Below, in pieces: positions 5,237-44,255 of a stretch of DNA of 64,000 nucleotides. The DNA lies in contig OZ024752.1 in the NCBI GenBank assembly GCA_964016885.1, positions 28,954,001 to 29,018,000 of the forward strand, in the 5' to 3' direction. Every line of letters begins with the position of its first letter. Within the stretch, counting starts at the first letter, position 1. The DNA comes from Eledone cirrhosa. Its lineage: Eukaryota. Under the pieces are notes generated by a model. It ran no database searches. It saw only the letters and a list, made by a program, of their open reading frames with translations, and had not been told where the DNA came from. Both the position numbers and the translations under genes were made by a program.

Positions 5237-5487
5237 AACATACATATACACACACATATATACACATACACACACACACATAAATACATATACAGACATA
5301 CATACACACACACATATACTATATGTATGCATGTATATATACATATATATACACATGGCATAGACACAAGTGTATAAACACACTAGTCTGCAAACACATA
5401 CATACGCAAACACACACATATACATACACACATACACAAGCACACACACACACATATATATATATATATACCTATATATACATATAT
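5053..5487. repeat. (TA)n/(CA)n microsatellite complex; others at 9003-9152, 35385-35476 and 37000-37130
   Basis: Dinucleotide and tetranucleotide runs. Confidence 0.95.
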
Positions 5488-5729
5488 AGGAACCAGTAAG
5501 ACCCCGACGGCTGAGCTCAAGCTGTTTCGACGGCTAATTCTAATTAGCCGTCGAAACGGCTTGAGCTCAGCCGTCGGGGTCTTACTGGTTCCTATTACCC
5601 ACTCTACTACCCCAAGTATTGAGTACTTTGGTGCGTTATGGTCCACCTGGTTCCTTACCACATTTCCTTCGTTATACATATATATATATACATACATATA
5701 CATATACACACATATATATATACATATAT

Positions 5730-9151: not shown

Positions 9152-9154
<3 letters not shown>

Positions 9155-9372
9155 AGATGTCAACATGAATGGTCCTGTTATTTTTATCTAAAGACAATTT
9201 TTCCAATTCCACCGCGCCCGTCCCTTCAATCTATCTAATTTCTCATTCTTTGTTCTGATGAAGGACTAGCGTCTGAAACGTTCAGACCCTCTTCCTGCTA
9301 TTTCAAGCGTTAACCTAATATATTCCTTGTATATACTGTACCGATTGTGTTATTTCTGTTTACTTTTTACAT
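9152..9372 (+). mobile_element. Short non-coding element (Penelope pLTR/retrozyme-like, family A) with hammerhead core, between (TA)n tracts
   Basis: CTGATGA-A-GGAC TAGC GTCT-GAAAC-GTT at 9255-9282. Homologous to 34390-34660 (+) and 36300-36575 (-). Confidence 0.65.
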
Positions 9373-9496
9373 ATATATATATATATATATAGTAATAATA
9401 TATATATATATAGTAATAATATATATAGTAATAATAATAATAAAATTGAAGGGTAAAAGCAGCGATTCTTTGCTTAAACTTTAATCTGTTATTTTA

Positions 9497-9533
<37 letters not shown>

Positions 9534-9788
9534 TTAGTTAAGCAAAACAAGACCCCAAATTTCACAATAATGTCTTCCTTGTGAAATTTGTGGTCTTGTT
9601 TTGCTTAACTAATGAATATTTCCAGCTCTGTGCACCTTACCTCTGCATGAACCCAGCTACCTAGCTGCCTTCCACTGCATATTGCACATTGAGCACATGC
9701 CTCTATGCTTTGGCTTCTAACTAATTCACCAATCTCTCTTCTCCTCTCCTATCTCTATCTCTCTCTTTAAGATTGGTTACTCTTGAAC

Positions 9789-10126: not shown

Positions 10127-10391
10127 CGAATAACGAAACGAAATTAAATTTCGTTTCGCTTCTAACTCACTTTTGTATGACTGACGCTTAAACAATTAAG
10201 TTAAAGTGTACATCTATATATGTATACGGAAGTATTAGTATGCATATAAATACACATATGTATACATATGTACATGTACCGAGCTTTTCAAAGTGTCTAG
10301 TGAAAAGCTCGGTACATGTACATATGTATACATATGTGTATTTATATGCATACTAATACTTCCGTATACATATATAGATGTACACTTTAAC

Positions 10392-10465
<74 letters not shown>

Positions 10466-24952: not shown

Positions 24953-27277
24953 TAAATAATAATGAAATTATTGTGTACAGTGCTCAGGTGCACTACAACT
25001 CATCAAAAGTGTATGTATAGCACATAAGGTAATGTACAACTGTGAGGAAAATGAACAGTGCATGAGTCATGATATACACGTGTGCATGTGTATGGAAGGG
25101 GAACATCAGGTGTAGTTTTGGCGAATTTCGAGAAGCATGAGGGTTTTAAAGGATGCAGTGTCTCGGCAGCTAACAACTGACACAGGCAGTTTGTTCCATG
25201 CTTCAGCAACTCTATGTTTCCAAAAGTCATGGGAGCCGTGCTGCTTTCTGACTTTGTAGGCAAGTCCACGTGTGTTAGACACATGGAGATCAAAAAGGTG
25301 CTTAGGGTTGTTGTTGGCGAGATGGTTAATAACTTTGTGGGTGTTTACCAAGTCCATTGCCTGACGGAGTTTCAATGAATCCCTGCCCAGGGAAGCAAGG
25401 CGTTCAGAGTATGGTAGGTGACTGATGGAGGGTATGCGCTTGGTTGCACGTCTGAACAGTTTCCAGGAGGTCAATGTTCTGAGCAAGATAGGGGTTCCAG
25501 ACTGATGATGCGAATTCCAAGTGTGATCGTACCATAGTTGTATACAGCTTTAAATAGATGGCTGGAGAGCGGCTAACAAAGGTCTTGCTGAGTGATGCCA
25601 AGACACCCTCGGCCTTCTTGACAATCTTAGAGACGTGCTTTGTCCAACACAAATCACTGCTGACAGTAATGCCCAGGTCACGTTCACAAGAGGACTTCTT
25701 GATATCAGTGTTGTGGAGGGAGTATGTGGACGCTGGATTTTTCCTCCCAAAATGCATGGTGGTACACTTGTCCACAGCCAGCTTCAGTTGCCAGTCTGTG
25801 ATCCATTGCTGCATTGTGTCCAGGTCTGATTGTAGGAAAGAGTTGTAGATTTCAGGATCAGTCCTTGATGTCATCTGCATATTTCAGTACCGTGGCATTC
25901 TTTAAGTTGGCATCTATGTCATTAATATATGCCACAAACAAAAGGGGACCAAGAACAGATCCCTGTGGTACACCAGATGACATCTGATATGGTGAAGAAT
26001 GTTGTCCTAGAACCGTGACTACCTCTTTTCGGCTGAGAATGAAGGATTTCAACCAGTTAAAAAGATCATCCCTCACAACCATTGCAGAGAGAGTTTCGCC
26101 ATAAGTCTTTTGTGTGGCACAGAATTAAAAGCCTTAGTGAAGTCAAGGTAAACAACATCCACCCATGAACCACTGTCAGTGATCCGGGTAATGTCTTCAA
26201 GGAACTCAATAAGCTGATCACAGCAGCTGGAGTTAGGGATAAATCCAAATTGCGAGGGCCAGAGGCTGTGAGAGCTCCAGAAGTTCCAAAGTGTTTCTGG
26301 CACAGGATTCCATCAGTTTGGCAATACAGCTAGTAAGACTGACTGGACGATAGTTGACAGGTGACGTGTGGTTGCCCTTTTTCCACTGCTCCGGAGTAGC
26401 ACCATTGTTGAGACAGTATTGAAAGAAGAAAGAAATCTGGTACAAAAGGAAATACCCGCCACATTTGAGAAGCAGGTATGTAACACCATCAAGACCAGGG
26501 GAGGCATAGTTGCGCTTATTCTTAAGGTGACGTCGCAACATTGCAGGTGTAAATTCCATAGTTGTTATGCAATTTGATGGTGGAGATGGTACATTCTGGT
26601 TTTCAACAGTAAAAATGCTTGCATAGCACTCAGCAATGAGTTCTGCGCATTCTTTGGGATCGTCAGTGATCTGGCTTGTGTGGGGATTGCGAAGAGGACC
26701 AACTTGAGAGTGAGGTCTCTGCTTTGAATGTACATATTTCCAGAACACCTTACTGTCAGGATTGGTTGCTATGCACTGTTCAAATTCAAGCACTGCCTTT
26801 TTTGTCACTTGCTTGAGATGGTTGGAAGATTTATTCCGCTTTTTTCTGTTAGCATCTGATTTATGCAGTTTATATTCCCGTTCAGCGTTCCGACATTCTT
26901 TCCTGGCAAGTCGGACCGCTGAAGTTTCCCAAATTGCACTTTTGGGGTGGGTTTTTTTCTGCTTACGTGGCACTGATGCTGCACATGCTATCCATATTGA
27001 GTCCAGGATGCTCTGGAGTATAGTATTCACATCTCCAGAGTTATAGAACTCATGCCAGTTTGGGCGCTGTAGCTCAGTGCAGTACAGGTTCCAATTTGCT
27101 TTCTTCCAATGAAAGCAAGCAGATTGGAGATGGCTCTGATTTTTGTTGCTGCCCGCAAGAGCCAGATTGGCAATGATCATAGCATGAACAGAGTCGCCTA
27201 GAGGTTCCTCAGTAGTACAACTGATAACCACTTCAGGAGTAGTGGTGAAGATCAGGTCCAAAGTATTGTCACCTCTT
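24953..27277 (-). mobile_element. CR1-clade LINE, 5'-truncated and frameshifted
   Basis: YRPVSLTSCIAKLME, DVVYLDFTKAF, GVPQGSVLGPLLF, YADD, ERDLGI, RSHLEFASSVWNPY; (ATT)n-like tail. Confidence 0.9.
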
Positions 27278-27899: not shown

Positions 27900-29680
27900 T
27901 AATAAAATAGTCTGTATACCACAATAGATAGACAACCAAACAGAGGTACAGTTCACCATAGCTAGCAATAAACTTAAACAGGTAGAAGAACAATAAACTA
28001 GGAAACAGAACAGACCGGAGTTTCCAACAACTTGGAAGAAAACCTGCAGGGAGCCTACTTAGTGCACAAGGAATGGTGAGGTAGTGGGTACAGACAAATC
28101 TGGTAGAATGTCAATAGACAGTATGCCAAACTACATCAAGGCTAAGCAACCCTACCTCATCAACACCACAGAAACATGAGGAAAGAGAAAGGATCCTCAA
28201 TGCTCACATGATGCTGTGGACTGACATCCTAAAACCAAGTAGATGCACAGCCAATAACTTCCAAGCCTCTAACAATGATATACCATCCCTGTATGGACTC
28301 CGCAAAGATCATAAAGCAGCTAGCGACCCTATGACAGGATCACCAACAAGACCTGTATGTGGAGCCAATATAGCTAGCAACTACAGGATTTCCTACTTCC
28401 TTTCTATGATTGTGCACCCCATAATTAAGATGTGCCCAGATGTGTGTGACAGCACAGAGGACCTCCTCAGCAGAATCAATGACTGCAACTACACCAAAGA
28501 CCTGACAAAATGTGTAATAGGCAGCATGGATATAATGTCCCTGTACCCATCCATTGACATTGATTTAGCTGTGGAAAAATGTCTGGAAATAATCAGTGAG
28601 AGTGAGGTAGAGTTCTGTGACATTGACACGGATGAACTGGGCCTCCTACTTAGACTTACATGTGACAGAGAATATCTTGACAACAACTTAGCAGCTTCTG
28701 CCCAGTTGACCAATAAGTGGTAGACCCACCAACCATAACTTTGATTGCAAAAAAAACACCGATAGGAAGATGGAATGGATGGACCAAAGCCATACAGATA
28801 CCAGAGAACAACGATCAGGTGAGAAAGATGATCGCACATGTGAAACTACCCTAAAGGGCCACATGTTCAAATTTAATAAGAAACATGCACCCAAGACAAA
28901 GGAGCAACCATTGGCATCTGCATAGCTGGTGATATTGCCAACCTATATATGGTTTAGTAGGAAATGAGACTCAGAGAATGCCTAGCAGAGAACTCCATAG
29001 CCCTCATCATGTACTCTCGTAGATAACATTAATAAAGTAATAAAAACACCCCCACAAGAGAGTACCAGTAAACCTGAATTAGAAACTAACACCATGGAGA
29101 GCATCCGGCAGACAACCAGTATTAGACACTGAACTCTGGTTACTTAATATAAACGAGAAAACCCAAATCCTCCATTCACATTATGTCTCCAAATACCTAA
29201 TACACGAAAACTCAGTGATGTCTAATAGTACTAAGTTTAATATCCTGATCGCAGACTTAGTAAGAGTGATGTAGAATGTGTCCCACATGTGCGATCCAAC
29301 TGAAATGGAGAAACAGTACAACACTTCAAGACCCTCATAGGACATGAAAGGGATTTGCCCACTGTACAGGAGCAAATCATGGAATAGCATAGATAGGACT
29401 AGACAAAAGATAGGGAAAGCCAACTATTGGTGTGACAACCAGAGATACCAGAGTGTTATTTTTGTGGATGCAACCCCTGGAGGTGAATTAGCTAACCAAT
29501 TTAGAAAGGCCCTAAGAAAGACCTATTTAAATATTAAAGTGGTAGAAAAGCCAGGAACTACCATAAAATCCCTGATCAGTAAAACGTACCCCTTTAAGAA
29601 AACCCACTGTACTAATAAGAAATGTGTTATATGTAGAATAAGTCCACAAATAAGTTGTAAAACTAGAAATGTAGTTTTTA
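27900..29680 (+). mobile_element. Decayed Penelope-like element (RT, thumb and Cys-rich linker; truncated before the GIY-YIG domain)
   Basis: PSLYGLRKDHK, PTRPVCGA, SMDIMSLYPSID, FVDATPGGEL, IKVVEKPG and CTNKKCVIC..SCKTRNVV motifs, with multiple stops and frameshifts. Confidence 0.8.
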
Positions 29681-31655: not shown

Positions 31656-32539
31656 TTTTTTTATTTTTATTTTGCTACATTTATATATGTGCGTTTGTGT
31701 GTGTGAAAAGATTCAGGACCCCGACGGCTGAGCTCCGGCCGATTCGACAGCTTGATCCATATATATATATATAATATTGAAACGAAGTCATCGTTAGAAC
31801 CGATGTATCTCCGACCGTTTTCTCACTCATTCAATGCTTTAATTAAACCAGCATCATTAAGATACCAACCAGAAAGGAAAGCAGGGTGCACATTTATACG
31901 TTAAATAGTCAGAAAAACGATTTTGTGTGGGTAGAGAATTTAATTTTGTGCGTGCGTGTGAGAGAGAGAGAGAGAGATTATAAACCTTTTAGATCATTTC
32001 AAAACGTGATACAAACACGTGTAAAACAGCGACGATAAAACAGTTTGTTTATTTTTTAAATAGATACAACTGAAAATTGCTGTTTTCGTAGCTGCGCCTA
32101 AGAATAACATTCGAGGACTTTATAGTTAAAATAATCACCAGTTTTTGTTTGATAAACAATTCCTTTATCACTATTATTGTGTTGTGTAACAACACAACAC
32201 AATAATAGTAGTGATAAAGGAATTATTATTGTGTTGTGTAACAACACAACACAATAATAGTGATAAAGGAATTGTTTATCAAACAAAAACTGGTGATTAT
32301 TTTAACTATAAAGTCCTCTTCTGTACAAGGCCAACAATTTGGGGGGGGGGGGGAAGTCGATTAAATTGACCGCAACACATTACTGGTACTTTGTTTTATC
32401 GACACTGTAAGGATGAAAGGCAAAGCTTGACCTCGGCGGGATTTGAATTCAGAACGTAAATGGATGTAACTCTATGCTACATAGCATGTTGTCCGACGTT
32501 CTACCGATACTGCCCTTGTTACGCTTATAATAAAATTAA

Positions 32540-33007: not shown

Positions 33008-34020
33008 GGTGGATTGGCAGTATCGGTAGAGTGTCGAACACTATGCTTTGTGCCATATTACGGCCCATTACGTTCTGAGTTCAAATCTCGCCGAGGATAA
33101 CTTTGCCTTCCATCCTTACAGGGTCGATAAAATAAAGTACCAATCACGCACTGGGGTCGATTTAATCGACTTTCCCCTTCCCCAAAATTGATGGCATTGT
33201 GTCTATATAAGAAACCGTTATTGCGGTGGATTGGCAGTATCGGTAGAGAGTCGGACGCCATGCTTTGCAGCATAGAGTTACGGTCCTTTACGGCCTGAGT
33301 TCAAATCCCGCCAAGGTTAACTTTGCCTTTCATCCTTACTGGGTCGATAAATAAAGCACCAGTAACGTACTGGGTCGATTTAATCGACTTTCCACTCTCC
33401 CCAAATTGCTGGCCTTGTGCCTATACTAGAAATCATTATTATTTGGCAGTATCAGTAGAGGGTTGGACGCCATGCTTTCTAGCATAGTTACGTCCCTTTT
33501 CGGTTTGAGTTCAAATCCCGTCGAGGTTAACTTTATCTTTCATCCTTACGGGGTCGATAAAATAAAGTACCAGTAATGTACTGGATAATTGCTGGCCTTG
33601 TGCCTAAAGTAGAAACAATTATTATTACAAATACTGTATGGCACCTAGAGCAAGTCTCTTCTACAATAGCCTCATGGTCTCGGATTGAACAGTACGTGAT
33701 CATTGGTAGGCGGAAACTGTATGAAAGACCATCGTGTATATACGTGTGTGTGTATGCGTATGTAACACTGTATAAATATATATATATATATATAATGTGT
33801 GTGTGTGTGTCTATGTGTATCTATGTATGTATGTGTATGTATAATTGTTTCTACTTTTGGCACAAAGCCAGCAATTACCCCAATGCATTACTGGTACTTT
33901 ATTTTATCGACCCCGTAAGGATGAAAGGCAAAGTTAACCTCGGTGGGATTTGAACTCAGAACGTAAAGGGCCGTAACTCTATGCTGCAAAGCATAGTGTC
34001 TGACGCTCTACCGATACTGC
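33008..34020. mobile_element. SINE cluster: three tandem plus copies and one inverted copy (33840-34020)
   Basis: Same head and core. Further copies at about 3540, 11293, 11732, 22915, 27349, 32320 and 40406. Confidence 0.88.
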
Positions 34021-34389
34021 TATGTATAATGCTAACCACGTTGGTGTAGATAGTAATTAGTATTATATCTGTATAGAATAATATCTGTATTAAATTCTAT
34101 AAAAGTTAAAATGTTTACGCCCTATAGAAATATAAGTGTTCAAATGAAATGACTAAATAAGATTTCTCTGGAGATTAAAGAGACGATTAAACGTGAAAGG
34201 AAAGTTTTTAGAATTATAACTAAAAGTATATAACAGTCAGTAATGCTTTTCTCTACATATTGTTTATGTTATTCCACTTCATTCAAAATTGTTTAATTAT
34301 AAATTCTGTGGGCGTATGTGGGTCACACGAATACACACACACATTCTTGAGGTTTGCCAACATATTTACGTACGTCATCACACACGCTT

Positions 34390-34655
34390 TTCTATAAAAA
34401 ATATATATATCATACACAAAACGCCAGCATCAACAGATTTCCAAGAGATGGCAACATGAATGGACGTACTATTTTTCTCTAAAAACATTTTTTTCCAATT
34501 CCACCCCGCCCGTCCCTTCAATCTATCTAATTTCTCATTCTTTCTTCTAATGAATGACTAGCGTCCGAAACGTTAAGACCCTCTTCCTGCTATTTCTAGC
34601 GTTAACCTAATATATTCCTTCTATATACTGTACTGATTGTGTTGTTATTTCTTTT

Positions 34656-34660
<5 letters not shown>
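34390..34660 (+). mobile_element. Family A hammerhead-bearing short element, copy 2
   Basis: TCTT-CTAATGA-ATGACTAGCGTCC-GAAAC-GTT-AAGA at 34543-34578; ends in (TA)n. Confidence 0.65.
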
Positions 34661-34705
<45 letters not shown>

Positions 34706-34860
34706 CGAAGGAAGTGTGGTAGGGAACCAGGTGGACCATAACGCACCAGAGTACTCAATACTTGGGGTAGTAGAGTGGGTAATAGGAAAAACATTATTTC
34801 TGGAGTCCAGAAATAGGTCTCGAAACGGCTCGAGCTCTGCCGTCGGAGTCTTAAACCTTT

Positions 34861-34895
<35 letters not shown>

Positions 34896-35375
34896 AATAT
34901 GGACGAGGTGTCAAATTTTCATTTCATTTATTGAGGTGTGACGGACGTTTCACGATTGATCAGCTCAAGGTTCAATTTGTGTCGATCGAGCCTGACTCTG
35001 GAATCAAAAGCTCATAACCCGTCTGACCTCTGTTAACGTAATCAGAAGTTTGATGAGCTTTTAATTCCAGAGTCGGGCTCGATCAATACAGGTCGTACTT
35101 TGAGCTGATCAATCGCGAAACGCACGTCACACCTCAATAAATGTAATGAAAATTTGACACCTCGTCCATATTATTATTATCATTATTACACTCTGCTTAG
35201 TACAATACCAAAATACATACTGGAAGACTACGCATCGAGGGCTCACTTTTTAAAATGAATATCCGAAGAGGAATGGAAGGGAACCAGAATTAAGTAAAGT
35301 ACTCAATACTTTAGTAGAGAAGCTACTTATTATTTCATATAGACATGACGTCTACACCTCCAGAACTATTCCTTC

Positions 35376-35479
<104 letters not shown>

Positions 35480-35711
35480 ATATACACGGGTGTGTATGAT
35501 TGTGTATAGAAGATAATATTAATAAAAGGAATTTCAACTTTGTCTGATTTACTCGTTTTATTTACAATCGTTTAAAATTTATAATGGTATTAGAATGAAA
35601 TAGTATGGTAGAATATTAAATGTTAAGTGTTAATTGAACAAGTACTTTCATGCTTTCGCAATCTTCAGTTCATAATGTGTGGTGACAGTCAAGTTTGCAA
35701 TTTTCACATTA

Positions 35712-35750
35712 TGAACCTGAAGATTGCGAAAGCGTGAAAGTACTTGTTCA
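35712..35750 (+). ncRNA. Minimal type I hammerhead ribozyme with palindromic helix III
   Basis: TGAAC-CTGAAGA-TTGC GAAA GCGT-GAA-AGTACT-T-GTTCA. An inverted copy lies at about 35635-35672 on the minus strand. Confidence 0.7.
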
Positions 35751-35944
35751 ATTAACACTTAACATAACATTTAATATTCTACCATACTATTTCATTCTAA
35801 TACCATTATAAATTTTAAAGGATTGTAAATAAAACGAGTAAATCAGACAAAGTTGGAATTCCTTTTATTAATATTTATATATATATATATATATATATAT
35901 TAATTCAAAATATTAACAAAATAGATATTCTTGTGATCAATTAT

Positions 35945-36009: not shown

Positions 36010-36178
36010 AAGATGATGCATGACATACCCTGACATAGTAGATGGTTAAGATTCAGTCATGGTAGTACCATGACTGAATCTTAACCATCTACTATGTCAG
36101 GGTATATCCAGGAAGCTTCAACTGTTAAGGTTGTCTTTTTTCCGGGTATGTCAATATTTATTTACAAAACAAATCTGT

Positions 36179-36240: not shown

Positions 36241-36299
36241 AAATATGGTTTTATAAATATAGTTTCCATTTATTAATATATTATATATATATGTGTGTG

Positions 36300-36575
36300 T
36301 GTAAAATGTAAACAAAAATAACAACACAATCGGTACAGTATATGGAAGGGATATATTAGGTTAACGCTTGAATTAGCAGGAAGAGGGTCTTAACGTTTTG
36401 GACGCTAGTCCTTCATCGAAAGAAAGAATGAGAAATAAGATAGATTGAAGGAACAGGTCAGTTGGAAATTGGAAAAAATGTCTTTAGATAAAAATAACAG
36501 GTCCATTCATGTTGCCATCTCTTGGAAAACTTGATACTGGCGTTTTGTGTATGATTTCTTTTTTTTAGAAAAGTT
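36300..36575 (-). mobile_element. Family A hammerhead-bearing short element, copy 3
   Basis: Reverse complement of the 34390-34660 element; degenerate core TCGATGAAGGACTAGCGTCCAAAACGTTAAGA at about 36388-36420. Confidence 0.65.
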
Positions 36576-40759: not shown

Positions 40760-43700
40760 AGTGTCTGACTGTGTGTGTGTGTGTGTATGTGGTCTCTGTG
40801 TCTGAGTGTGTGTGGTGTCTGTGTGTGCCTATGCGGCGCCTGTGTGTGTCTATGTAGTGCCAGTCTGTGTGTCTATGCAGTGCCAGTGTGTGTGTCTATG
40901 TAGTGCCATGTGTGTGTGTGTGTCTATGTAGTGCCAGTGTGTGTGTCTATGTAGTGCCAGTCTGTGTGTGTCTATGTAGTGCCAGTGTGTGTGTCTATGT
41001 AGTGCCAGTCTGTGTGTGTCTATGTAGTGCCAGTGTGTGTGTGTCTATGTAGTGCCAGTCTGTGTGTGTCTATGTAGTGCCAGTCTGTGTGTGTCTATGT
41101 AGTGCCAGTCTGTGTGTGTCTATGTAGTGCCAGTCTGTGTGTGTCTATGTAGTGCCAGTGTGTGTGTGTCTATGTAGTGCCAGTCTGTCTGTGTCTATGT
41201 AGAGCCAGTCTGTGTGTGTCTATGTAGTGCCAGTCTGTGTGTGTCTATGTAGTGCCAGTCTGTGTGTGTCTATGTAGTGCCAGTGTGTGTGTCTATGTAG
41301 TGCCAGTCTGTGTGTGTCTATGTAGTGCCAGTCTGTCTGTGTCTATGTAGTGCCAGTCTGTGTGTGTCTATGTAGTGCCAGTGTGTGTGTGTCTATGTAG
41401 TGCCAGTCTGTGTGTGTCTATGTAGTGCCAGTGTGTGTGTCTATGTAGTGCCAGTCTGTGTGTCTATGTAGTGCCAGTCTGTGTGTCTATGTAGTGCCAG
41501 TCTGTGTGTGTCTATGTAGTGCCAGTGTGTGTGTGTCTATGTAGAGCCAGTCTCTGTGTGTCTATGCAGTGCCAGTCTGTGTGTCTATGTAGTGCCAGTC
41601 TGTGTGTCTATGTAGAGCCAGTCTGTGTGTCTATGTAGTGCCAGTCTGTGTGTGTCTATGTAGTGCCAGTCTGTGTGTGTCTATGTAGTGCCAGTGTGTG
41701 TGTGTCTATGTAGAGCCAGTCTCTGTGTGTCTATGCAGTGCCAGTCTGTGTGTCTATGTAGTGCCAGTCTGTGTGTGTCTATGTAGAGCCAGTCTGTGTG
41801 TGTCTATGTAGTGCCAGTGTGTGTGTGTCTATGCAGTGCCAGTCTGTGTGTCTATGTAGTGCCAGTCTGTGTGTGTCTATGTAGTGCCAGTGTGTGTGTG
41901 TCTATGTAGTGCCAGTCTGTCTGTGTCTATGTAGAGCCAGTCTGTGTGTGTCTATGTAGTGCCAGTCTGTGTGTGTCTATGTAGTGCCAGTCTGTGTGTG
42001 TCTATGTAGTGCCAGTGTGTGTGTCTATGTAGTGCCAGTCTGTGTGTGTCTATGTAGTGCCAGTCTGTCTGTGTCTATGTAGTGCCAGTCTGTGTGTGTC
42101 TATGTAGTGCCAGTGTGTGTGTGTCTATGTAGTGCCAGTCTGTGTGTGTCTATGTAGTGCCAGTGTGTGTGTCTATGTAGTGCCAGTCTGTGTGTCTATG
42201 TAGTGCCAGTCTGTGTGTCTATGTAGTGCCAGTCTGTGTGTGTCTATGTAGTGCCAGTGTGTGTGTGTCTATGTAGAGCCAGTCTCTGTGTGTCTATGCA
42301 GTGCCAGTCTGTGTGTCTATGTAGTGCCAGTCTGTGTGTCTATGTAGAGCCAGTCTGTGTGTCTATGTAGTGCCAGTCTGTGTGTGTCTATGTAGTGTCA
42401 GTGTCTGTATGTCTATGTAGTGCCAGTCTGTGTGTGTCTATGTAGTGCCAGTGTGTGTGTGTCTATGTAGTGCCAGTCTGTGTGTGTCTATGCAGTGCCA
42501 GTCTGTGTGTCTATGTAGTGCCAGTCTGTGTGTGTCTATGTAGTGCCAGTGTGTGTGTGTCTATGTAGAGCCAGTCTCTGTGTGTCTATGCAGTGCCAGT
42601 CTGTGTGTCTATGTAGTGCCAGTCTGTGTGTGTCTATGTAGAGCCAGTCTGTGTGTGTCTATGTAGTGCCAGTGTGTGTGTGTCTATGTAGTGCCAGTCT
42701 GTGTGTGTCTATGTAGTGCCAGTGTGTGTGTCTATGTAGTGCCATGTGTGTGTCTATGTAGTGCCAGTGTGTGTGTCTATGTAGTGCCATGTGTGTGTCT
42801 ATGTAGTGCCAGTCTGTGTGTCTATGCAGTGCCAGTGTGTGTGTCTATGCAGTGCCAGTGTGTGTGTCTATGCAGTGCCAGTCTGTGTGTGTCTATGTAG
42901 TGCCAGTCTGTGTGTGTCTATGTAGTGCCAGTCTGTGTGTGTCTATGTAGTGCCATGTGTGTGTGTGTGTCTATGTAGTGCCAGTCTGTGTGTGTCTATG
43001 TAGTGTCAGTGTCTGTATGTCTATGTAGTGCCAGTCTGTGTGTGTCTATGTAGTGTCAGTGTCTGTGTGTCTATGTAGTGCCAGTGTGTGTGTGTCTATG
43101 TAGTGCCAGTCTGTGTGTGTCTATGTAGTGCCAGTCTCTGTGTGTCTATGCAGTGCCAGTCTGTGTGTCTATGCAGTGCCAGTGTGTGTGTGTCTATGTA
43201 GAGCCAGTCTCTGTGTGTCTATGTAGTGCCAGTCTGTGTGTCTATGCAGTGCCAGTGTGTGTGTGTCTATGTAGAGCCAGTCTCTGTGTGTCTATGTAGT
43301 GCCAGTCTCTGTGTGTCTATGCAGTGCCAGTCTGTGTGTGTCTATGCAGTGCCAGTCTGTGTGTGTCTATGCAGTGCCAGTCTGTGTGTGTCTATGTAGT
43401 GCCAGTGTGTGTGTGTCTATGTAGAGCCAGTCTCTGTGTGTCTATGCAGTGCCAGTCTGTGTGTCTATGTAGTGCCAGTCTGTGTGTGTCTATGTAGTGC
43501 CAGTCTGTGTGTCTATGCAGTGCCAGTGTGTGTGTTTATGTAGTGCCAGTCTGTGTGTCTATGTAGTGCCAGTCTGTGTGTCTATGTAGTGCCAGTCTGT
43601 GTGTCTATGTAGTGCCAGTCTGTGTGTGTCTATGTAATGCCAGTCTGTGTGTCTATGTAGTGCCAGTCTGTGTGTCTATGTGGTGTCTGTGTGTGTGTCT

Positions 43701-44255
43701 ATGTAGTGCCAGTGTGTGTGTCTATGTAGTGCCAGTCTGTGTGTCTATGTAGTGCCAGTCTGTGTGTGTCTATGTAGTGCCAGTCTGTGTGTGTCTATGT
43801 AGTGTCAGTGTCTGTATGTCTATGTAGTGCCAGTCTGTGTGTGTCTATGTAGTGTCAGTGTCTGTATGTCTATGTAGTGCCAGTCTGTGTGTGTCTATGT
43901 AGTGTCAGTGTCTGTATGTCTATGTAGTGCCAGTCTGTGTGTCTATGTAGTGCCAGTCTGTGTGTCTATGTAGTGCCAGTCTGTGTGTCTATGTAGTGCC
44001 AGTCTGTGTGTCTATGTAGTGCCAGTCTGTGTGTGTCTATGTAGTGCCAGTCTGTGTGTGTCTATGTAGTGCCAATCTGTGTGTCTATGTAGTGCCAATC
44101 TGTGTGTGTCTATGTAGTGCCAGTCTGTGTGTCTATGTAGTGCCAGTCTGTGTGTCTATGTGGTGTCTGTGTATGTGTCTATATAGTACATGTGTGTATG
44201 TCTATGTGGTGTGTGTGTATGTGGTGTCTCTGTGTGTGTGTGGTTCCTGTGTATA
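40760..44255. repeat. 3.5-kb minisatellite, 22/24-bp unit CTATGTAGTGCCAGTCTGTGTGT(GT)
   Basis: Direct tandem units without spacers, degenerating into GT-rich sequence at both edges. Confidence 0.97.

What the first reader, a model, noticed from the sequence alone, without database searches (positions are those of the whole stretch)
35515..35875. 360-bp fold-back palindrome with a hammerhead in each arm
Seen: arms of about 165 bp are near-perfect inverted copies around a roughly 25-nt loop, flanked by microsatellites. The right arm has an intact minimal hammerhead (stem I TGAAC/GTTCA, GAAA-tetraloop stem II, palindromic AGTACT helix III) followed by AATAAA. The left arm has the antisense copy with one C missing. 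Inference: either transcription direction yields a ribozyme plus its own antisense, so long-hairpin formation would compete with ribozyme folding. The layout resembles inverted pseudo-LTR products of Penelope integration.
Basis: partly seen in the sequence, partly recalled or inferred. Interest (0 to 1): 0.75.

Follow-up and report, generated by a model that had tools for sequence, protein, structure and literature searches.

The report
Head-to-head stub of a Penelope retroelement
This hairpin is an ordinary, promoterless stub of a Penelope-like jumping gene, two short copies of its ribozyme-bearing end joined back to back, one of over a thousand such joints in this genome; the family's copies suggest that both ends of a DNA cut were likely used to copy one RNA up to its predicted start, and sometimes only up to the ribozyme's predicted cut.

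Summary
Real, and of a known kind. The arms (window 35515-35706 and 35705-35874) are two 5'-truncated copies of the pseudo-LTR of a Neptune/Nematis-type Penelope-like element (RT, Zn-finger linker and GIY-YIG in longer copies), inserted in (TA)n. The 25-nt loop is element sequence; the left arm carries the known 35-nt tail, the right does not. The genome holds 5,584 exact hammerhead cores and 1,029 head-to-head joints at one position, so this is no one-off artefact. The left hammerhead has a private deletion and neither arm has the promoter: the 'ribozyme versus antisense' layout is a by-product, not a device. What the family adds: 60 of 100 arms begin within -3..+12 of a predicted transcription start 31 nt after a TATA box; intact pairs are tail plus no-tail in 27 of 28 and 43 of 47; arms share alleles; a smaller class begins at the predicted ribozyme cut (unclear). 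Inverted pLTRs, tails and minimal hammerheads are published, and this scan reported the same patterns on other DNA.

The parts
35385..35426 (.). (TA)21, left part of the likely target microsatellite
   Evidence: family 3' ends abut (TA)n in most copies
35426..35477 (-). (AG)25, read as (CT)n after the tail; likely expanded from the element's CT/ATCT seed
   Evidence: the same (CT)n or (ATCT)n follows the tail in many copies and a short seed sits before the ORF start
35478..35514 (-). tail (+198 to about +234), the 5'-UTR continuation of the pLTR towards the ORF; present on the left arm only
35515..35706 (-). left arm: pLTR copy from +6 to +197 (+1 = predicted transcription start)
35635..35672 (-). 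left hammerhead with one C of the CC at the stem I/core border deleted (private change); predicted impaired
35680..35704 (-). unpaired centre: element positions +8..+32 of the left arm, followed by the 2-nt microhomology at 35705-35706
35705..35874 (+). right arm: pLTR copy from +33 to +196, no tail, with a private 5-bp duplication near 35761-35772
35712..35750 (+). type I minimal hammerhead motif; predicted cut between 35745 and 35746 (element +73/+74); activity untested
   Evidence: motif rules from PMC4209133
35828..35833 (+). AATAAA inside the pLTR (about +155); role untested, copies end at +197 or after the tail, not in poly(A)
35875..35900 (.). (TA)n, right part of the likely target; no target-site duplication can be read in it

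Best explanation
The palindrome is a 5'-truncated, head-to-head insertion of the pseudo-LTR of a Penelope-like retrotransposon in a (TA)n repeat, likely made when both DNA ends at the cut primed reverse transcription of the same uncut RNA and the two cDNAs were joined near the RNA's predicted 5' end. Shown: family membership, tail on one arm only, shared template alleles between arms, clustering of 5' ends at +1, microhomology at this joint. Inferred: +1 is the transcription start (TATA box 31 nt upstream; an ORF-bearing copy starts exactly there); the two 3' ends (+197 and the tail end) are the two internal RT start sites found in vitro for the anole element PAc, one used per DNA end, perhaps by a dimer; the cDNA 3' ends are joined by microhomology or a template jump. 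The hammerhead is a passenger here: this template was not cut, the left copy has since decayed, and the insert has no promoter.
For: Upstream RT and GIY-YIG (RVT_1 3.5e-07, GIY-YIG 1.8e-06 and 1.5e-05). pLTR + tail run into the ORF start in 5 of 25 ORF-5' loci, L172 starting at +1. 1,029 joints at +1; 44 of 77 loci and 63 of 100 arms have an adjacent head-to-head partner. Tail + no-tail in 27 of 28 (p=1e-7) and 43 of 47 (p=1e-9) intact pairs. Arm-to-arm divergence 4.0% vs 6.4% for shuffled partners (lowest 5.7% in 2,000 shuffles); shared minor alleles 151 vs 49. No polarity at the joint: tailed arm longer in 24, shorter in 15, equal in 4 of 43 (p=0.20); 3 of 66 joints have a centre of 1 nt or less without microhomology, which a fold-back cannot give. 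PAc nicks and extends both strands, starts at two sites that bound the tail, and is a predicted dimer (PMC11167929).
Against: Most joints, including this one and the commonest +1/+4 type, are also compatible with fold-back self-priming. Shared alleles could come from two RNAs of one source locus, or from later conversion between arms. PAc showed no difference in start site between top and bottom strands, so the strict one-tail-per-pair rule is not explained by that paper. The transcription start is predicted from motifs and copy ends only; no RNA reads were available. No target-site duplication can be read. The samples come from the start of contig C1 or from the first listed matches, not at random.
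Confidence: 0.72

Rival explanations
1. Single-ended priming with fold-back: one cDNA, primed at the tail end, folds back at its 3' end, copies itself, and the endonuclease resolves the hairpin short of the tail (self-priming as proposed in PMC3846280; tail by EN-mediated resolution as in PMC8557442).
For: Explains shared alleles and one tail per pair at once. The commonest joints can be drawn as 3- to 5-nt-loop hairpins, and this locus as a 25-nt loop with 2-nt pairing.
Against: No fixed longer arm (24 vs 15); joints with both arms reaching +1 or +2 and 0-1 nt between them (L007, L051, L115); long pairs truncated hundreds of bases apart with 0-5 nt of microhomology; solo copies of both 3' types exist.
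Confidence: 0.2
2. The locus is a functional RNA switch or hairpin-RNA gene in which long-hairpin formation is selected to block the ribozyme.
For: The whole insert folds at about -249 kcal/mol and removes the hammerhead stems; read-through transcripts would be dsRNA.
Against: Promoterless; private decay in both arms; neutral-like mutation of the motif in copies; over a thousand equivalent joints.
Confidence: 0.03
3. Assembly artefact (fold-back chimera) or a MITE with terminal inverted repeats.
For: No independent read was shown to span this particular joint.
Against: Arms differ at 5 places and in the tail; joints vary between loci; 8 contigs of public run X1 carry a head-to-head joint of this family (table 7); the sequence continues into an RT ORF in other copies.
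Confidence: 0.03

Closest known systems
Canonical EN+ Penelope-like insertions with an inverted 5'-truncated pLTR and one-sided tail (Arkhipova et al. 2013, PMC3846280, passages and Discussion read; Craig et al. 2021, PMC8557442, passages read)
   Same: Head-to-head inverted pLTR, 30-40-bp tail on one arm, microhomology joint, TATA/Inr in the pLTR, (TA)n target, CX2-5CxxC linker and C-terminal GIY-YIG.
   Different: Here the insert is only the two pLTR stubs; counts show strict tail/no-tail pairing and 5' ends piled at the predicted start, which those passages state only qualitatively or not at all.
[quoted passage not shown]
   Same: Type I motif in the pLTR, 5-bp helix I, extra base after position 9, palindromic helix III; that paper also saw pairs on opposite strands 100-700 bp apart.
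   Different: Helix II is only 3 bp plus a GAAA loop, the usual G10.1-C11.1 pair is absent (U on both sides), the cut follows U; no activity data.
PAc, the Poseidon element of the green anole (Frangieh et al. 2024, PMC11167929, parts 1-2 of 4 read)
   Same: Two 3' end points bounding a tail at the pLTR-ORF border; AT-rich targets; uncut RNA as main template.
   Different: Different clade (Zn-finger linker present); ORF starts after the tail, not within the hammerhead; a minority of genomic copies begin at the predicted cut, whereas no such RNA ends were found for PAc.
Animal non-LTR retrozymes (bioRxiv 10.64898/2026.07.22.740005, passages read)
   Same: Non-coding hammerhead-bearing sequence derived from a pLTR.
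   Different: Not tandem monomers from cut site to cut site; copies run from +1 to the RT start sites and belong to the autonomous family.

Membership tests
EN+ Penelope-like element (family of origin) | Single ORF with RT and C-terminal GIY-YIG endonuclease | tested here: met
   Pfam RVT_1 and GIY-YIG above cut-offs in L179, L031, L021; ORF 3' end joins the arm sequence in 6 of 30 loci
EN+ Penelope-like element (family of origin) | pLTR at both ends, the 5' one continuing into the ORF | tested here: met
   pLTR + tail precede the ORF start in L169, L172, L179, L182, L186; pLTR follows the stop codon in L031
EN+ Penelope-like element (family of origin) | Inverted 5'-truncated copy with 30-40-bp tail on one side | tested here: met
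   window itself and 27 of 28, 43 of 47 intact pairs
EN+ Penelope-like element (family of origin) | Retained spliceosomal intron | not tested
   no RNA reads to map splicing
Neptune/Nematis clades | CX2-5CxxC linker before GIY-YIG, DKG motif, CCHH in the endonuclease | tested here: met
   read from translations: C-x4-C-x2-C in L016 and L021, DKG in L031, CxxC inside GIY-YIG with two downstream histidines; features from PMC8557442
Neptune/Nematis clades | Placement in an RT phylogeny (Neptune versus Nematis) | not tested
   no reference sequences in hand; the label Neptune is from motifs only
Minimal type I hammerhead of PLEs | Conserved core, helix I of 4-5 bp, extra base after position 9, palindromic helix III | tested here: met
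   right arm; left arm lacks one C
Minimal type I hammerhead of PLEs | G10.1-C11.1 pair and covariation in helix II | tested here: not met
   U flanks helix II on both sides; no compensatory changes among the first 100 of 7,038 matches; no Rfam match. Indirect constraint: 0 of 16 subfamily-variable sites fall in +40..+79 (p=0.012)
Minimal type I hammerhead of PLEs | Self-cleavage | not testable with these tools
   only the indirect footprint of copies starting at +73..+75
MITE | Short terminal inverted repeats with TSD, no RT link | tested here: not met
   whole-length inversion with variable centre, asymmetric ends, RT ORF in longer copies
Non-LTR retrozyme | Tandem monomers delimited by hammerheads | tested here: not met
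   no head-to-tail hammerhead arrays in the 77 loci; copies are solo, inverted pairs or ORF-linked

The most novel reading that the evidence does not exclude
The thousands of stubs of this family are a fossil record of the Penelope RNA's two 5' ends, the transcription start (+1, major) and the hammerhead cut (+74, minor), each copied twice from one RNA by both ends of the DNA break. That would be population-scale genomic evidence that a minimal PLE hammerhead cleaves in the germ line and that twin priming at two fixed sites makes the inverted pLTR and its tail.
Probability: 0.5. Interest if true: 0.65.

Novelty: new member of a known kind. Interest (0 to 1): 0.36.

Why it matters
The locus itself is dead repeat DNA. 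The family matters as a test set for two open points in PLE biology: how inverted pLTRs and tails arise (PMC8557442 names this as needing an in vitro system), and whether minimal hammerheads cut in vivo (PMC4209133 notes the lack of in vivo evidence; PMC11167929 found no RNA ends at the cut). It gives exact predictions: RNA starts at +1, RT starts at +197 and the tail end, a cut at +73/+74. Over a thousand short palindromes from one family are also a potential source of dsRNA when read through.

Tried and rejected
Rfam at gathering thresholds: 0 matches in the window. Sequencing runs: no RNA holder listed; contigs and RAD reads show the family and one joint type but no piece spans the locus. 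ORF start directly after tail plus 30 nt or less, using L031's 5' end: 0 matches; L031 proved 5'-truncated. A-to-I editing of the template: rejected, A>G 3.05 vs T>C 5.66 per 1,000 on the sense strand. The apparent conservation of the hammerhead was dropped because that sample was selected on the motif; the 3'-selected sample shows none for private changes. Covariation search for helix II found none. Joints between a +1 arm and an arm starting at +53..+82 did not give a clean cut-site peak: by hand 11 of 50 at +72..+74, 10 at +70, 9 at +78, 12 upstream of +68. The outer inverted pair 34387-34701 / 36268-36573 is not part of this structure: another family, 85% identical, 3' ends facing inwards. 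Paper searches listed no paper that pairs 'twin priming' with pLTR or reports copies starting at a PLE hammerhead cut; Arkhipova 2006, Evgen'ev and Arkhipova 2005 and the supplements of PMC4209133, PMC11167929 and PMC8557442 were not seen and may hold such statements.

Full report
Observation. The palindrome is present as described. The arms align over 165 and 171 nt with 3 substitutions, a 5-bp duplication on the right and one C missing on the left; the longest exact inverted stretch is 55 nt against at most 18 in 500 shuffles. The right hammerhead lies at 35712-35750 and the left, on the minus strand, at 35635-35672. Rfam found nothing at gathering thresholds.

What it is. The window lies at G000:C12:28954001-29018000 in a 3.0-Gb genome. 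One arm matched 47 places at 86-100% among 40 scored candidates. The exact 31-nt hammerhead core occurs 5,584 times and an exact 25-mer near the 3' end 7,284 times (controls 0). In 6 of the first 30 loci the arm continues upstream into a shared ORF end. [quoted passage not shown] Downstream, pLTR plus a 35-nt tail plus a short (ATCT)n(AT)n lead into the ORF start in 5 of 25 loci chosen for the ORF's 5' part. So the arm is the pLTR and the tail is its 5'-UTR continuation. I number from the A of ACAGTTG (+1), which lies 31 nt after the first T of a TATATAAG box. In these terms the window holds a left arm +6..+197 with tail and a right arm +33..+196 without, joined through 2 shared bases; the loop is element sequence. 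Neither arm has the promoter.

How common. 1,029 places have two arms joined head to head at +1; 1,312 exact matches include the promoter side. Of 77 loci built from the first 100 core matches on C1 (6 overlapping duplicates dropped), 44 have an adjacent inverted partner; of 100 arms chosen on their 3' end, 63 do. Eight contigs of run X1 carry such a joint, the joints differ between loci, and the window's arms differ by private changes (family reads restore the missing C in 234 of 269 and 182 of 207 reads). An artefact is therefore unlikely, though no independent read was shown to span this joint.

5' ends. In the 3'-selected sample 40 of 100 arms start at -3..+3, 20 at +4..+12, 18 further upstream and 22 at +13..+160. 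L172, an ORF-bearing copy, starts at +1. The simplest reading is that +1 is the transcription start and that stubs are complete copies of the RNA's first 200-235 nt. This is inferred; no RNA data were available.

3' ends and template. Pairs with both 3' ends intact are tail + no-tail in 27 of 28 and 43 of 47 in a nearly independent set (L135 is new to but); binomial p 1e-7 and 1e-9. In 45 pairs the arms differ by 4.0% against 6.4% for shuffled partners and share 151 minor alleles against 49, including alleles private to a pair. Both arms thus come from one template or one source locus. The tailed arm is longer at the joint in 24, shorter in 15 and equal in 4 of 43 pairs (p=0.20), and 3 of 66 joints have a centre of 1 nt or less without microhomology. 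These facts favour two primed ends over an obligatory fold-back, but most joints fit either. Frangieh et al. (PMC11167929, parts 1-2 read) found that PAc nicks and extends both strands, starts at two internal sites that bound the tail and is a predicted dimer, but saw no strand difference in start site. Arkhipova et al. (PMC3846280, passages and Discussion) read such palindromes as self-priming on an antisense template.

The hammerhead. It meets the minimal-motif rules of PMC4209133 (parts 1-2 read) except the G10.1-C11.1 pair, has a 3-bp helix II, shows no covariation and folds weakly alone. Source elements seem to keep it (0 of 16 subfamily-variable sites in +40..+79, p=0.012) while copies lose it at the background rate. 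The predicted cut is at +73/+74. Five of the 22 arms starting at +13..+160 start at +73..+75 on inspection (0.35 expected, Poisson p=3e-5; a uniform null that ignores microhomology). Of 10 symmetric joints near the cut, 4 use the helix III palindrome and, by hand, 4 have both arms at exactly +74. In the first 49 of 88 listed short joints, the longer arm starts at +72..+75 in 29, at +66..+71 in 10 and at +76..+82 in 10; microhomologies compatible with a +74 end were used 12 and 5 times, equally long ones that need uncut RNA 0, 0, 0 and 3 times, and ends without microhomology peak at +74 (6 of 32). By hand 6 of 16 (TA)n-flanked starts lie at +72..+75 (3 of the 16 loci are also). Against: the commonest type is also an ideal 4-bp, 5-nt-loop hairpin, and one search shows equal peaks at +70 and +78. 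I put a real cut-site class at about 60-65%. The window's own copy runs through the cut on both arms, so its template was uncut.

The long hairpin (about -249 and -235 kcal/mol) abolishes the hammerhead stems on both strands, so the competition is physically right. But the left motif is damaged, the insert has no promoter, and it is one of more than a thousand; a by-product is far likelier than a device.

Known and new. Inverted pLTRs, one-sided tails, junction palindromes, microsatellite targets and opposite-strand hammerhead pairs are in print. Five paper searches listed nothing on strict tail pairing, start-site-limited stubs or copies starting at the cut; older Arkhipova papers and all supplements were not seen. 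This scan has reported each of these patterns on other DNA, as unchecked AI notes. Verdict: new member of a known kind; the locus is ordinary, the family statistics are useful. Interest 0.36.

Noticed in passing
window 34891-35177: A second palindrome (136-nt arms, 87%) beside (TA)n with a hammerhead-like core lacking a clear helix II in each arm, followed by AATAAA; likely a stub of another PLE family.
   Followed up: partly
window 34387-34701, 36268-36573 and 9152-9403: Three copies of another pLTR-like family with a hammerhead-like core, each ending at (TA)n; two of them face each other around the finding but are only 85% identical, so probably separate insertions.
   Followed up: partly
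window 5486-5595, 9527-9619, 10194-10397, 32113-32318, 36022-36108: Five more short palindromes, most next to (TA)n; no hammerhead core found in them by a loose scan; 5589-5716 matches 34661-34788.
   Followed up: partly
L031, L004, L016, L019, L021 and others: Unrelated palindromic stubs are nested in the (TA)n runs that flank this family's copies, so microsatellites act as repeated landing sites for several families.
   Followed up: no
window 33014-33584, 1995-2356 and about 20 other places: Abundant 200-nt SINE-like repeat with a tRNA-like B-box, partly in tandem.
   Followed up: no
window 40840-44211: Minisatellite of about 139 copies of a 25-bp unit with strong strand skew.
   Followed up: no
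window 25404-27276 (-) and 28118-28723 (+): Broken ORFs that read like a LINE RT and like a PLE-type RT fragment (recalled resemblance, not scanned).
   Followed up: no
L107, L113, L061, L125, L029, L081: Junction inserts of 11-36 nt are templated copies of the neighbouring +1 region, a sign of repeated template jumps or polymerase-theta-type joining.
   Followed up: partly
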